NCBI GenBank assembly: GCA_951406725.2
Contig: OX597821.1
Span: 92,876,001 to 92,940,000 of the forward strand
DNA from: Octopus vulgaris
Lineage: Eukaryota
DNA: 64,000 nt
Direction of reading: 5' to 3'
Part shown: in pieces, positions 20,359 to 45,793 of the stretch
Position numbering within the stretch: position 1 is the first letter of the stretch
How the letters are laid out: each line of letters starts with the position of its first letter
Position numbers and translations under genes: made by a program
Notes under the pieces: generated by a model
The model's input: only the letters and a program-made list of their open reading frames with translations
Told to the model about the DNA's origin: nothing
Database searches by the model: none

Positions 20359-20610
20359 GACTATAAATAAGGGTGTCCGAGGGACACCACCATGCCGAAA
20401 TAGCAGTCAAACCCAGACACTAAAAACCACCTAAAATGTTCATACCTCACAATGAGATATGGTGTGATATGAACATTTTAGGTGGTTTTTAGAGTCAGGG
20501 TTTGACTGCTATTTCGGCATGGTGGTGTCTCTCAGACACCCTTATTTATAGTTGTAAAAAATTATTATCTTTGTATGATATTTATTCCCATGCTGGCCAC
20601 TTGATAAAAT
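20359..20610. repeat. Fold-back element in (TA)n (about 85-bp arms, short spacer)
   Basis: 20360-20443 is the imperfect reverse complement of 20468-20552. Confidence 0.85.
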
Positions 20611-21070
20611 CGATATTATAAATATCGATAAATATATATATTATTTATATATATATCTTAGTATGTTGGTAACATGTAACCGAATACAACCTGTCGCATG
20701 TTTGGCGACCAAACTGACAAACCTACTGACCCTGCATTATTAAAACAGTAGTTTTCGTTTGACATCCAACACGGTGAGAAGCAAAAACCAATCAAGACTT
20801 CAGTAAAATCAACAGCCATCCAACAGATGGCGGTTAGAAACCCGTAGTCTTTGTTTAGACATCCCTCTAGGATAAGAAAATTCCGAAATTAACTCCCACC
20901 TCATTGCGAAGCCGTAGATCTTTCTATTGCTTGTTTTAGGATTTCTTGGTTTGTAAGTGAGAATCATAGCGATGTTATGCAACATATTATTGTCTTTAAA
21001 TTTCAGCTCGTACATTGCTGACTGCCGTTGTTTTTAACATGCAGGATAATTTGTCATATAGATTTCACTG

Positions 21071-21406
21071 TGTGGCGCATGGCTCAGTGATTAGAGCGTC
21101 GAGCTTACGATCGTGAGGTTGTGAGCTCGAATCCCGGACCGGGCTGCGTGTTGTGTTCTTGGGCAAGGCACTTTATTTCACGTTGCTCCAGTTCACTCAG
21201 CTGTAGAAATGAGCTGCGACGTCACTGGTGCCAAGCTGTATCGACCTTTGTCCTTCCCTTGGATAACACTGGTGGCGTGGAGAGGGGAGGCTGGTATGCA
21301 TGGGCGACTACTGGTCTTCCATAAACAACCTCGCCCGGACTTGTGTCTAGGAGGGTAACTTTCTAGGTGCAATCCCATGGTCTGTGTCGTGACCGAAGGG
21401 GGTCTC
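21071..21406 (+). mobile_element. tRNA-derived SINE (family D)
   Basis: tggctcagtgattagagcgtcg...gctcgaatccc head; tgtgttcttgggcaaggcacttt core; its 3' part recurs at 3326-3398. Confidence 0.75.
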
Positions 21407-22786
21407 CGAATACTTGATGATATACCACATGAATGTATTATGATCATTATTGATGATATGTCGTTATTACCATGACCAGTATCAGGCCTTGTGCCTATAG
21501 TAGAAAGGATTATCGCGACCAGTATCGTTATCCTCATTAGCAACGGTCAACAAAGAAGCCTTCTTCTCATTACTTGACTCACCATTAATAGCAGCCAAAT
21601 TCCCCAGAGATTACACACTACTATTTTAAAAATAGGGAAAACATATTAAAAGAGGGAAACGTATTAAATAATGAAGTCACATACACAGCTTATCTGGGAA
21701 AATGTTTTGATGGTTATGCTGCTAGAATACCTTTAATGAGTTCAACTCCGGATTGGAGCAGACCTGGGAAAAAAATAACAGCAACAACTATAATAAAATC
21801 TCACCAGATGAAGGTGGAAAACACACCTAGTCGAAAAAAAATTCCTTTATCTTTTTCTTTTCTATTTTCCATTTTAAACTCAAATGAGAGGCTGTGTCTG
21901 TGGTGAGTTGTGTGGGTATTAGGAATGGGGTTGTGTGACAACAGTTGGTCTGCAGTCGATACTATCACAGAAGTTTCATTTATCCAAAGGAATAAAAAGC
22001 TTTTCCTTTAATCTTAGATATTTTGCCCTGAGGAAACAAGACAGCAAAGCTGATAATTGTAACAACAACATGAAAGAGATAGAAAAACTTTTAGATATTC
22101 CCTAACAAAACAAGAATAAAATTGGAGAAAAAATCCATAAAGAAAATAAGTAAAAGAAAATATAAAAACAAAATTAATAGAAATACTTTTCTTACAAACA
22201 ATATTTTTTCAAAGTTTTCGCCAAAAGTTTTGTAGTTCTAATTCTGAACTTTGCAAGTTTCCTTTAATTATTCAATATTTTCTTGTCCATTAACCTTTAA
22301 ATGATTAGACTGGCTGCTTTGCAGAATCGTTAGGATATGGGAGAAAATGTTTTATCCGATTTAATCCCAGCATGTGTTGCATTCTTAGTTCAAATTCTGC
22401 TGAGGTTAACTTTGCTTTTCTTCTTTCCTGGGCCTATACAACGAAGAACTAGTGAAGCACTGTAGGGCGATTTTATCGACCCACTGATATTTTATTGGTG
22501 TTTCCTAGACTTATTTAATCAAAGGGTTAAAGATGAGGATCAAAACTAAATCTTCTTTGTGTTGCTTGAATTTCATACACGGATAAGTGTATACCCTGGA
22601 GCAGACACAGCATCCCTATGACGAACATTGAGTCTGGATATTAGTTTTGAAAGACAAAATCCTGGAACAATGCAATAATATACAGGGTATGAGGTGCATC
22701 CATAATCAAGTCTGATGCAGTTTGATACTAGAATCATTATATTATAGCAAATCCCTATGATTAATAATTAACCATAAAATCTAACC

Positions 22787-41949: not shown

Positions 41950-42345
41950 TAAAGGACTGACCACTAAAAGTGGACGGTCAACATGCTAGATATAGACGTC
42001 AAATCGCTATTTTCCACATCAGACCATGCTGATGAGATTGCAGTTTAACCTTGCGGATAGTAACAATCGAAACTGATCAGTACATGGGTAATCATTTTTA
42101 TTCGTATATTTTCATTTGTCTTGCTTATTTTTAATGCTTTGGTTTTGTGCTGAGTTTTTATTTGAGAACATATTCTTTGTGGAAAATAGCGATTTGACGT
42201 CTATATCTAGCATGTTGACCGTCCACTTTTAGTGGTCAGTCCTTTAAATTTTGTATGTAAAAATATTTTAATTTTCGGATTTTTTTAATATGCTGGGCCA
42301 CTGGTTTTAATTGATTAATATCAATTTCTACCCTTATTAAATATT
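41950..42345 (+). mobile_element. Fold-back element with perfect 69-bp arms enclosing a hammerhead
   Basis: 41950-42018 is the reverse complement of 42178-42246; (TA)n flanks. Confidence 0.8.
42024..42087 (+). ncRNA. Type I hammerhead ribozyme
   Basis: ccatg CTGATGA gattg[loop]caatc GAAA ctgatcag TA catgg. Confidence 0.85.
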
Positions 42346-44989
42346 AAATATATATATATATATATATATATATATATATATATATACATACATACATATA
42401 TACACACACATACATACATACATACATACATACATACATACATACATACATACATACATACATACACACACATACATACATACATACATACATACATACA
42501 TACATACATACATACATACATACATACATACATATAATTATATATGTAGTGGATGGATGGAGATCTAGACGGACGGGTTGACAGACGGGCGATGGATAGT
42601 CAGATGGATCAAATTCCCTTCACAAAATATTGGGCAGTCCCCGGCTATAGTAACAAACACCTTTTCAGTGGGATCAAACCTAGAACCGTATTCTTGTGAA
42701 GCGAACTTCTAATCCTATGGCCTGCACTCACTAAACTTACTACAATCATTTCTTGACAGCACTTCATTGTACAACCTACTTGCAACGCACAATCATCGAT
42801 TATACAACTCAATGAAGGTGTCCCTACATTGTTGCTTAACTTGCTAGAAATGACAGTTTAATGTCCCTCAAATCACACCTCTATTGTCTTAGATAGAAAG
42901 AAAATGGGAAACATTGGCTAATATTGTCTTATATACATTGAGTTTGAAGGGGGGAAAAGATGGGATAATCATAGCAAGAATGCATTTGATCATGGGTTTG
43001 CTTGATCAGGCTTGACCTTTGGCTCTCCACCACCACCAACAAAACTGATTGTTGTTACCATCTTCCATTACATTAGAATGACCTTCTACTGTACATACAA
43101 TTCCAGCTACCACATATCTGTCTATACTATCTTAAACTACCTTAATTATTGTAACCATCTAGCATACCGCAACATGTCCACACCATCTCGGCTTGACCTC
43201 AACTCCAACCCTGACCCCCATAAACCACTACAAACCCTTGAATCAATTCCTTTTATTGATCCAAACGTTGCTATTCTAAAGCAATAAAGAAGTAATACGT
43301 TTCACCATCTTAAATACTATAATCATCAAAAGAGTCCCTTCAGAGCATTAATGAAGTGTCTTTGACAGCCTTTGTTACCATTCCTTTGAAACATGCTACC
43401 ATTGTTATCTAAGTATTATGTCACTGCCAGCCTTGCATAGAAGCTCTCCTAAATCTATCTTCCTCATGACTTTGAGTGCTTTTCTATAATTACTTCCCTC
43501 GCAAAATGACCACGTACCACTCCATGTCCTTTGTACGTTGAGTGTGAGTGTGTGTATATGAGTGCAGTGTCTCTGTGTGTGTGCGTGCGTGGTGTGCGTG
43601 TTTGTGTGTGTGTGTGTGTGTGTGTGTGTGTGCAGTGATGTGTAAAGGTGTACGTGTATACATGTGTTCATGTTATATCAAGGGATTTGGTTATTGGTTG
43701 TAAGAACGCATTAAAGCATATATGATAGTTTATATATATACATACATATATATATAAATATATGTATATATATATATATACATATATATATACATATACA
43801 TATTTGTATATATACACACACACACACACACACACACACACACACGCACACATATATATATATATATATATACACATATATATGTATACATATATATATA
43901 GATAGATAGCCAGATAGATAAAGAGATAGATATAGATATCGATATATACATATATATGTGTGTATGCATATTTATATGTGCGTGTCTATACGTACGTATA
44001 TACATCTATATATTTATTTATGTGAGTGTATGTGTATATAATTTTAGACTCCCCCATAAGTAGAGTCAACTGACGTCAATTGCAAGAGACCCTTAGATAT
44101 AACAAAATAATAATCCAGTTTACTAGCACAGTTCTACTCACTACTCCCAAAGATGTGTATAAAAAAACATCATGTCTCTTCATAAAAGTACAAACAACCA
44201 AATAAATTATATATATATATATATATATATATATATATATATATACATATACATATATAAACAAATATATATGTGCTGGTATATGTGTGCATATGTATAT
44301 ATGTGTATGTGTGAGTATGTGTATACGTGTACGAGTTAGTGCCTCTCTATTCATTGGGCAGGTGTATAGTAATGCAGGCCTTAATGTGAATGGTACGCGT
44401 ACATTATAGGTATGTCGGGTAGGGTTATTGGTATCCTTGTATTTATCTACTCAGTCGATGCACTTTGATGTGTTACACGCTGAAATGTATCTAATCTATG
44501 CATAGTTATTGCTCACATGACCATGTGTACGTGTTAAATATAGAAGCTCCTCAACATATATATATATATATATATATATATATATATATATATACATATG
44601 TATACATATATAATATATATATATGCATGTGTGCATGTATGTGTGTGAATAGATAGATAGATGTATATCTGTATGTATTCATACTCATTACATATGCACA
44701 CGCGTATTCGTGGAGCATTGAATTTTACAATAAATGCACTTCTCTACGTAGATCTTGCATAGAACTATAGCCAGCATTGATGCATATATTACAATATATA
44801 TGTCTGACACAAACATATATATACTATGGACATGGATGTTCCTATGTCGGTCATGTATGTATGTATTTATGTATGTATGCATGTATGTGTGTGTATGTAT
44901 GCATGTATGTGTGTGTATGTATATATATATATATATATATATATATATATGTGTGTGTGTGTGTGTGTGTGTGTGTGTGTGTGTGTAAT

Positions 44990-45172
44990 CGATCGCTACC
45001 CACTAAAGCATTTTTTTATTCTCTCTCTGTTTATTTTCTCGTGTTCCTTTCTGTTGAAGAGCGTAGGCTCGAAACCTAAAAGATTTTCTCACCTTCCCGA
45101 GCGTTAAACTAATACACCTGTTTGTTGTTTATACAACAGTCTTCGTCTTTTGCTTTTTTGTAAAGTTCAACT
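44990..45172 (+). mobile_element. Short element with minimal hammerhead-like motif (45047-45082)
   Basis: cttt CTGTTGA a gagc-gtag-gctc GAAA cc TA aaag; lies between (TG)n and (TA)n. Confidence 0.65.
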
Positions 45173-45793
45173 ATATATATATATATATATGTAATTAATT
45201 AATTAAAACTTAAGGTAACAAGAATATTTATCGAAAAATTCTTAGTTACCAGTGGTCCAGCGAGAAAAGAAATGAGTCAATAAACTATATATTATTCAGA
45301 GAATAATACAGTGTACATTCAATGTACACTGTCTATATGTTCAGTCCTGGCAACCTACTGAGGACGCAGCGCCAGATATAGACTGAGATTATTTTATTTC
45401 AATCTGTATTTAAGTCTGCAGAAAACTTGCAGGGTCTAGGATTAAGGTAAAAGTTTTTATTTTTCAATCACTTTCGGAATTACAACAATTGGTGGCTTGG
45501 AGTTTTTAACTGCTCTTTCTAGCGAGTCAGATATCTTATTCTGGTATCTCTTTTGTGTTTGAATATATATATATATATATATATATATATATATATATAT
45601 ATATATAGAGAGAGAGAGAGAGAGAGAGATAGATAGATAGATAGATAGATACATACATACATACATACATACATACATACATACATACATACATACATAC
45701 ATACATACATACATGTACACCTGGTTTTTATTCTGTGTATATGTGTATGTGCACATGCATCTAAGTCTACACGAGAGAATCTAATCGCTTATG

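What the first reader, a model, noticed from the sequence alone, without database searches (positions are those of the whole stretch)
20501..45387. Second, unassigned conserved RNA-like motif with covarying long-range helix shared by five divergent elements
Seen in five elements whose flanking sequences mostly differ: (UUUG..)CUAUWU-CURGCR..[variable stem-loop and AT-rich linker, about 65-110 nt]..YGCURG-(R)-CCACU(U)G(G). Pairings: 20515 CGGCAUGG / 20588 CCAUGCUG (+); 41070 UCUAGCGU / 40990 ACGCUAGA (-); 41875 UCUGGCGUG / 41775 CACGCUAGA (-; followed by CGACUGG); 42207 CUAGCAU / 42290 AUGCUGG (+); 45376 UCUGGCG / 45262 CGCUGGA (-). A-U versus G-C and G-U exchanges preserve the helix. In two copies CCACU could also pair with an internal AGUGG, giving a pseudoknot or switch. 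In the two elements that contain an intact hammerhead, the complete motif is on the hammerhead strand. Inference: an RT-recognition or terminal structure, or a new ribozyme-like module.
Basis: partly seen in the sequence, partly recalled or inferred. Interest (0 to 1): 0.75.

Follow-up and report, generated by a model that had tools for sequence, protein, structure and literature searches.

The report
Conserved RNA junction marking retrozyme ends
Thousands of small, protein-free jumping repeats in this animal genome share a base-paired RNA junction whose two hairpins sit just before the two points where inserted copies end, so it is likely the handle by which a Penelope-type reverse transcriptase grips the RNA and starts copying it.

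Summary
The motif is real: 2,149 exact genome matches against 0 for the reversed pattern. It is part of a larger structured domain in a clade of 462-547-nt hammerhead retrozymes inserted in (TA)n. An upstream GUGG pairs with the 3' CCAC (GUAG/CUAC in one clade), which closes a predicted three-way junction; the proposed pseudoknot is not supported. Four of the five window copies are complete; the fifth pairing is an artefact of two opposed arms. The two ends of an insertion lie about 9 nt after hairpin P4 and about 12 nt after hairpin P6, and the outer end moves with P6 length. Best reading (0.6, inferred): the RNA signal that a Penelope-like reverse transcriptase binds to start two cDNAs. No Rfam match. 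No coding Neptune or Hydra element sampled carries the domain, so the helper is unidentified. The scan has noted two-armed retrozymes of this genome many times, and once a conserved non-catalytic fold; the cross-family covariation and the hairpin-to-end spacing were tested here.

The parts
20360..20459 (-). Element 1, inverted arm; holds the 5' half of the domain and ends shortly after hairpin P4 at a TA run (end site 1)
   Evidence: monomer f11 425-524
20478..20630 (+). Element 1, full domain: P1 (GUGG 20482-20485 / CCAC 20597-20600), P2, P3 one pair shorter on both sides (20515-20522 / 20588-20595), P4 20524-20540, P5, degenerate P6
   Evidence: fold; cluster c11
40500..41112 (-). Element 2, long arm: 524-nt monomer plus a partial repeat; full domain 41098-40932, second 5' half about 40574-40500 ending at end site 1
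   Evidence: f15
40658..40733 (-). Element 2 type I hammerhead (CUGAUGA at 40727), cleavage untested
41115..41191 (+). Element 2, short opposed arm: P6 and end site 2
   Evidence: monomer 93-169
41714..41899 (-). Element 3, 5'-truncated copy with the domain; P3 41875-41867 / 41775-41767, P1 3' strand mutated in this copy, P6 41761-41731
41930..42018 (-). Element 4, inverted arm ending after P4 (end site 1)
42024..42087 (+). Element 4 type I hammerhead (CUGAUGA at 42029), cleavage untested
42179..42345 (+). Element 4, full domain: P1 42179-42182 / 42298-42301, P2, P3 from 42206 / to 42297, P4, P6 42303-42332, end site 2
45198..45322 (-). Element 5, minus arm: linker, 3' strands of P3 and P1, P6, end site 2; has no 5' half of its own
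   Evidence: f12 45-172
45330..45563 (+). Element 5, plus arm: hammerhead (45358-45424), GUGG 45492-45495, P3 5' strand 45518-45526, P4, end site 1
   Evidence: f12 307-543

Best explanation
The motif is the core of a covarying, roughly 170-200-nt RNA domain of a clade of non-coding hammerhead retrozymes, and it likely serves as the signal that a Penelope-like reverse transcriptase binds in order to start two cDNAs. Shown from sequence: the domain follows the hammerhead by 113-183 nt; P3 is kept through compensatory changes; insertions sit in (TA)n, commonly as two opposed arms, one ending after hairpin P4 and the other after hairpin P6. Predicted: P1, P2 and P3 form a three-way junction, and P3 closes a loop holding P4, end site 1 and P5. 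Inferred: the helper enzyme cuts both strands of a TA run, the junction holds the two hairpin-plus-AU-tail sites, and each cut strand primes copying about 9-12 nt 3' of a hairpin; running round a circular or tandem RNA would give the arrays.
For: P3: 97.8% of cells paired, 3 pairs with double changes; bp 8 changes 4 times on each side, always together (1 of 60,000 simulations), bp 7 p=0.002, bp 9 p=0.003; one subfamily lost a whole pair. P1: GUGG/CCAC in 100, GUAG/CUAC in 26, GUGG/CUAC in 0 of 132 copies; RNAalifold finds P1 and P3 unprompted. P4 and P6 beat shuffles (z < -1.5) in 23 and 24 of 27 subfamilies despite different sequences; P6 is more stable on the hammerhead strand in 23 of 27. 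Ends: median 12 nt after P6 (111 of 132 copies measurable), 9 nt after P4 (58 of 132); measured from CCAC without reference to P6, the outer end lies at 43, 52, 55 and 63-64 nt in families whose P6 ends at 31, 41, 38 and 46-48. Precedent: purified Poseidon protein cleaves and extends both strands, needs RNA 3' of the hammerhead, starts at two internal sites that flank the genomic tail, and is predicted to be a dimer (PMC11167929).
Against: No binding or priming data. The domain was found at the own 3' end of none of the coding elements scanned, and their end profiles do not match the monomers (best real hit E 0.69), so the helper would have to read a structure that its own RNA lacks, or has not been sampled. 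P1 rests on one compensatory event (p=0.06) and reaches probability 0.5 in only 5 of 11 whole-circle folds. P2 and P5 are weak alone (7 and 13 of 27). Exceptions to the spacing: subfamilies c9 and c14 end 1-3 nt after P6; 4 inner ends lie 36-39 nt after P4. In one search the end was sought from the hairpin onward within a fixed window, which inflates the correlation (rho 0.79). In the youngest family the ends coincide with 6-8 nt TA tracts, so simple annealing could set them. The invariance of P3 bp 1-6 and part of the G-U excess are built in by my search patterns.
Confidence: 0.6

Rival explanations
1. The domain is a general folding scaffold of the retrozyme RNA (stability, circularisation, binding of a host protein, keeping the hammerhead quiet); the ends fall at AU/TA tracts that merely lie next to hairpins.
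For: Animal retrozyme circles are described as highly self-paired, and something other than self-pairing is thought to block the hammerhead in vivo (PMC7229834). Coding elements lack the domain. TA microhomology of 6-8 nt at 13 of 18 measurable inner ends.
Against: 11 of those 13 come from one family; 9 of 14 outer ends show 3 nt or less. The outer end follows P6 length across families, and both hairpins are followed by a similar CU-then-AU-rich run.
Confidence: 0.27
2. The conserved strings act as DNA, for example as an endonuclease recognition site or part of a promoter, and the pairing is incidental.
For: The tail of D. virilis Penelope was needed for endonuclease recognition of plasmid DNA (as cited in PMC11167929). 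The reverse complement can fold P1 and P3 too in most representatives.
Against: Compensatory changes 70-110 nt apart and a two-sided one-pair deletion have no meaning in duplex DNA; P6 favours the RNA strand in 23 of 27 subfamilies.
Confidence: 0.06
3. The domain is a second, new self-cleaving or ligating ribozyme.
For: A junction with conserved letters (U in 26 of 27 subfamilies at two of five linker places); no Rfam family explains it.
Against: Only those two unpaired letters are near-invariant; each monomer already has a hammerhead; insertion ends map to AU tracts outside the junction.
Confidence: 0.04

Closest known systems
Animal non-LTR retrozymes (Cervera and de la Pena 2020, PMC7229834; Li, Clavereau and Pollet 2026, 10.64898/2026.07.22.740005)
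   Same: Non-coding tandem monomers, each with a type I hammerhead, low GC; Penelope-like elements proposed as helpers.
   Different: Monomers of 462-547 nt (mussel 350-390 nt). In the parts read, neither paper describes a conserved non-catalytic domain or ties structure to insertion ends; the preprint's supplements were not seen.
Poseidon element of Anolis (Frangieh et al. 2024, PMC11167929)
   Same: Needed RNA lies 3' of the hammerhead; two internal start sites bound the tail; AT-rich targets; both strands extended.
   Different: Coding element; tail 30-40 nt and starts within one AC-rich stem-loop without target homology. Here the two ends are about 85-125 nt apart, each 3' of its own hairpin.
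Hydra-clade Penelope-like elements (Craig et al. 2021, PMC8557442)
   Same: (TA)n targets, canonical-type hammerheads; abundant young families in this genome with RWR, DKT and CxCx5C motifs and two end points separated by long tails (about 65 nt, 115-120 nt and longer).
   Different: Three Hydra end types seen here lack the P1/P3 core, and their ends do not match the monomers significantly. Likelier helper than Neptune by tail length, but not shown.
Telomerase RNA CR4/5 three-way junction (PMC3950677)
   Same: A three-way junction proposed to bind a reverse transcriptase of the Penelope/telomerase group.
   Different: No conserved P6.1-type loop, short hairpin 5' rather than 3' of the long arm, no template-pseudoknot found; an analogy only.

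Membership tests
Animal non-LTR retrozyme | Type I hammerhead in each repeat unit | tested here: met
   Core found by pattern in every unit of the 505-nt arrays; a core or close variant read by eye in the 11 aligned monomers
Animal non-LTR retrozyme | Short tandem monomers | tested here: met
   462-547 nt in 11 subfamilies, within the 51-972 bp of Li et al.
Animal non-LTR retrozyme | No coding capacity | tested here: met
   No linked RT or endonuclease by tblastn with Neptune and Hydra proteins; hits were neighbouring insertions
Animal non-LTR retrozyme | Self-cleavage and circular RNA | not testable with these tools
   Only assembled contigs of runs not on record as RNA were available
Penelope-type insertion | Partial tandems with an inverted 5' copy | tested here: met
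Penelope-type insertion | Tail at one end only, 30-40 bp | tested here: inconclusive
   A one-ended extension is present but is about 85-125 nt; Hydra elements of this genome also have long tails
Penelope-type insertion | (TA)n targets as in Neptune, Naiad and Hydra | tested here: met
Autonomous Penelope-like element | RT plus GIY-YIG reading frame linked to the domain | tested here: not met
   Model R1 over 45, 20, 20, 60 and 50 loci of coding elements (partly the same copies); the strong hits were separate retrozyme insertions
Known ribozymes and other Rfam 15 families | Match to a covariance model | tested here: not met
   Window scan (150 of 195 rows shown) and two monomer scans up to E 10 gave only sub-threshold miRNA/snoRNA noise over the elements; the hammerheads were missed too, so sensitivity is limited
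Telomerase CR4/5 | P5-P6-P6.1 order with conserved U and G in the P6.1 loop | tested here: not met
   P2 loop varies freely and precedes the long arm against the features
   Internal GUGG in 8 of 27 subfamilies; 2 copies keep it while the 3' strand reads CUAC with upstream GUAG

The most novel reading that the evidence does not exclude
These retrozymes evolved a dedicated docking domain that presents two hairpin-plus-tail start sites to a dimeric Penelope-type reverse transcriptase and sets each start by distance from the hairpin: the first defined cis signal for animal retrozyme mobilisation and a junction-based handle for a telomerase-related enzyme.
Probability: 0.3. Interest if true: 0.75.

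Novelty: new variant of a known kind. Interest (0 to 1): 0.5.

Why it matters
How animal retrozymes are recognised by a reverse transcriptase is open: the discussion of PMC7229834 only names Penelope-like elements as candidates, and PMC11167929 locates the needed RNA of one coding element without a structure. A covariation-backed domain with two mapped end points gives a small, mutable substrate and a sharp prediction (the start moves with the hairpin). Because Penelope enzymes are the sister group of telomerase, and the needed RNA is short, the answer bears on how such enzymes select templates and on their use for writing RNA into DNA.

Tried and rejected
Intron reading: a GU after the hammerhead and AG in the helix strands are not kept across families. 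Helper search: Neptune families found with PF01541 and Hydra families found with three endonuclease queries have two ends in (TA)n but no P1/P3 core; each search scored only 150 of 6,136-16,620 candidates, so other families remain unseen. An apparent likeness of one Hydra end to the monomers 3' of the hammerhead was not significant (best E 2.2). A pattern for other P1 letters gave 7 matches and no new family. Metagenome scan: 0 matches. Sequencing runs: no RNA holder listed; contigs of 4 runs from 4 coded organisms cover the 505-nt family, with a 535-nt contig (unit plus 30) in two, which fits a tandem array as well as a circle. A weak model hit at 61225-61348 is not a full copy. The protein search gave 23 relatives, almost all unnamed, and no context. 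The genome could not be searched with the covariance model, so families were gathered by patterns and DNA queries, with listed rows mostly from the first contig. Literature: five searches showed no paper on this domain; the core strings were absent from the supplement of PMC8557442 (line breaks could hide a match).
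Full report
Observation. The quoted strings are in the window at the quoted places. Element 5 is misread: it consists of a plus arm (45330-45563) and a minus arm (45322-45198) of one family, and the quoted 5' strand is the antisense of hammerhead stem II in the plus arm. The genome looks like an octopus; this rests on earlier scan notes and on a relative named for Octopus.

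What the elements are. Each lies in or beside (TA)n, commonly as two opposed arms. Tandem copies give monomers of 462-547 nt in 11 subfamilies, each with a hammerhead core or a close variant; where a core was found by pattern it starts 113-183 nt before the domain, on the same strand. No RT or endonuclease frame is linked to them. This is the anatomy of animal non-LTR retrozymes (PMC7229834: passages and discussion read; bioRxiv 10.64898/2026.07.22.740005: parts 1-3 of 5 read, supplements not seen) with the inverted copy and one-ended tail of Penelope-like insertions (PMC8557442: passages, section 11 and supplement searches; PMC4209133: parts 1-2 of 4).

The domain. From the fetched loci, 132 distinct copies fell into 27 clusters with a median pairwise similarity of 0.54. 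The order is P1 5' strand (GURG), short hairpin P2, a five-letter linker, P3 5' strand, hairpin P4, an AU-rich stretch, small hairpin P5, P3 3' strand, P1 3' strand (CYAC) and hairpin P6. In folds of 19 representatives P3 had probability 0.8 or more in 18 and P1 0.67 or more in 14; the reverse complement folded them too in most cases, so these folds do not fix the strand. RNAalifold predicted P1 and P3 on its own. On 25 representatives 97.2% of cells paired, with 23 two-sided changes against 6.0 +/- 2.6 in shuffles and 1-7 in slid controls (one row is misaligned by one column; shuffles ignore relatedness). On a tree built from the columns outside P1 and P3, bp 8 of P3 changed four times on each side and always together (1 of 60,000 random placements); bp 7 and bp 9 gave p 0.002 and 0.003. 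The family of element 1 lacks one whole pair. Positions 8 and 9 were free in my patterns; positions 1-6 were largely fixed by them, so their invariance is not evidence.

P1 and the pseudoknot. A large clade found through the model, not through the pattern, has GUAG/CUAC. Among 132 copies: GUGG/CCAC 100, GUAG/CUAC 26, GUAG/CCAC 3, GCGG/CCAC 2, GUGG/CGAC 1, GUGG/CUAC 0. This is one evolutionary event (p 0.06), and P1 reaches 0.5 in only 5 of 11 whole-circle folds while P3 reaches 0.7 in 9 of 10. An internal GUGG occurs in 8 of 27 clusters, has a local partner in 6, and is kept in 2 copies whose 3' strand reads CUAC. The 3' strand therefore follows the upstream GUGG. P4 and P6 were more stable than dinucleotide shuffles (z below -1.5) in 23 and 24 of 27 clusters, P5 in 13, P2 in 7; P6 was more stable on the hammerhead strand in 23 of 27. 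Rfam gave no match over the elements.

Link to the ends. One arm of an insertion ends after P4, inside the loop closed by P3; the other ends after P6 (window elements 2, 4 and 5). Taking the start of the first microsatellite as the end, the distance was a median 12 nt after P6 (quartiles 11-16; 111 of 132 copies) and 9 nt after P4 (9-13; 58 of 132). That measure starts at the hairpin and inflates the family-level correlation (rho 0.79, 25 related clusters); the measure from CCAC does not, and shows the same shift (43 to 64 nt as P6 grows from 31 to 48). Clusters c9 and c14 end 1-3 nt after P6, and four inner ends lie 36-39 nt out in families with extra hairpins. TA microhomology of 6-8 nt was seen at 13 of 18 inner and 5 of 14 outer ends, nearly all in one young family.

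Mechanism. Purified Poseidon protein cuts and extends both strands at AT-rich DNA, needs RNA 3' of the hammerhead, starts at two internal sites that bound the genomic tail, and is predicted to dimerise (PMC11167929, parts 1-2 of 4 read). By analogy the two ends here are two cDNA start points, and the domain that places a hairpin before each is most simply the enzyme's binding and positioning signal (0.6). The structure is supported by comparison; binding, priming, dimer use and the circular template are inferred. The main rival is a general RNA scaffold with ends set by AU tracts (0.27).

Helper. The genome holds young Neptune elements (RT and GIY-YIG confirmed; tails of about 30-37 nt) and abundant Hydra-clade elements (motifs as; longer tails). 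The model found the domain at the own end of none of the loci scanned (45, 20, 20, 60 and 50 loci); the strong hits were retrozymes inserted next to or inside them. Profiles of four coding end types did not match the monomers above shuffled controls. Only the best 150 candidates of each protein search were scored, so a coding carrier is not excluded.

Verdict. A real, covarying structural domain in a known kind of element. Five literature searches showed no description of it. Earlier scan notes report the two-armed retrozymes of this genome repeatedly and one reports a conserved fold outside the ribozyme; they are leads, not support. New variant of a known kind; interest 0.5.

Noticed in passing
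window 13325-15227 (+): 18S rRNA-like sequence, 868.8 bits, GC 0.60 with long expansions and a degenerate 5' part; probably a dispersed copy.
   Followed up: no
L147 544-720 (+); also L149, L151: Neptune family with two overlapping frames (479 aa and 781 aa); a predicted long-range helix joins the sequence before the first end with the start of the first frame and encloses both end points. Covariation untested.
   Followed up: partly
L252-L261, L332-L336: Hydra-clade elements with frames up to 1,091 aa, swollen by Asn-rich linkers, and 3' untranslated parts of 1.2-2.4 kb; much longer than the under-3-kb Hydra elements of PMC8557442.
   Followed up: partly
L280 about 1890-2700: A two-armed retrozyme of the c12 type inserted into the 3' untranslated part of a Hydra copy without a long TA run at its left junction.
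   Followed up: partly
L159 2780-3360 (-): A further, degenerate retrozyme family with a diverged form of the domain in two tandem units.
   Followed up: no
L010 about 1200-1260 and other monomers: A conserved GCGCC-then-CAUUUGAA stretch upstream of the hammerhead in several monomers; earlier notes suggest an snRNA-type promoter in such repeats.
   Followed up: no
window 40328-40350 (+) and about 45055-45075 (+): Minimal hammerhead-like motifs of other Penelope-type ends that lack the domain.
   Followed up: no
window 46857-47177 (-), 49096-49419 (-), 60806-61153 (-): Short frames that look like mariner, Tc1 and LINE fragments (family names recalled, not tested).
   Followed up: no
clusters c0, c1, c5, c8: P5 carries a C(UUCG)G loop in 4 of 27 clusters; its known extra stability in RNA is recalled.
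   Followed up: partly
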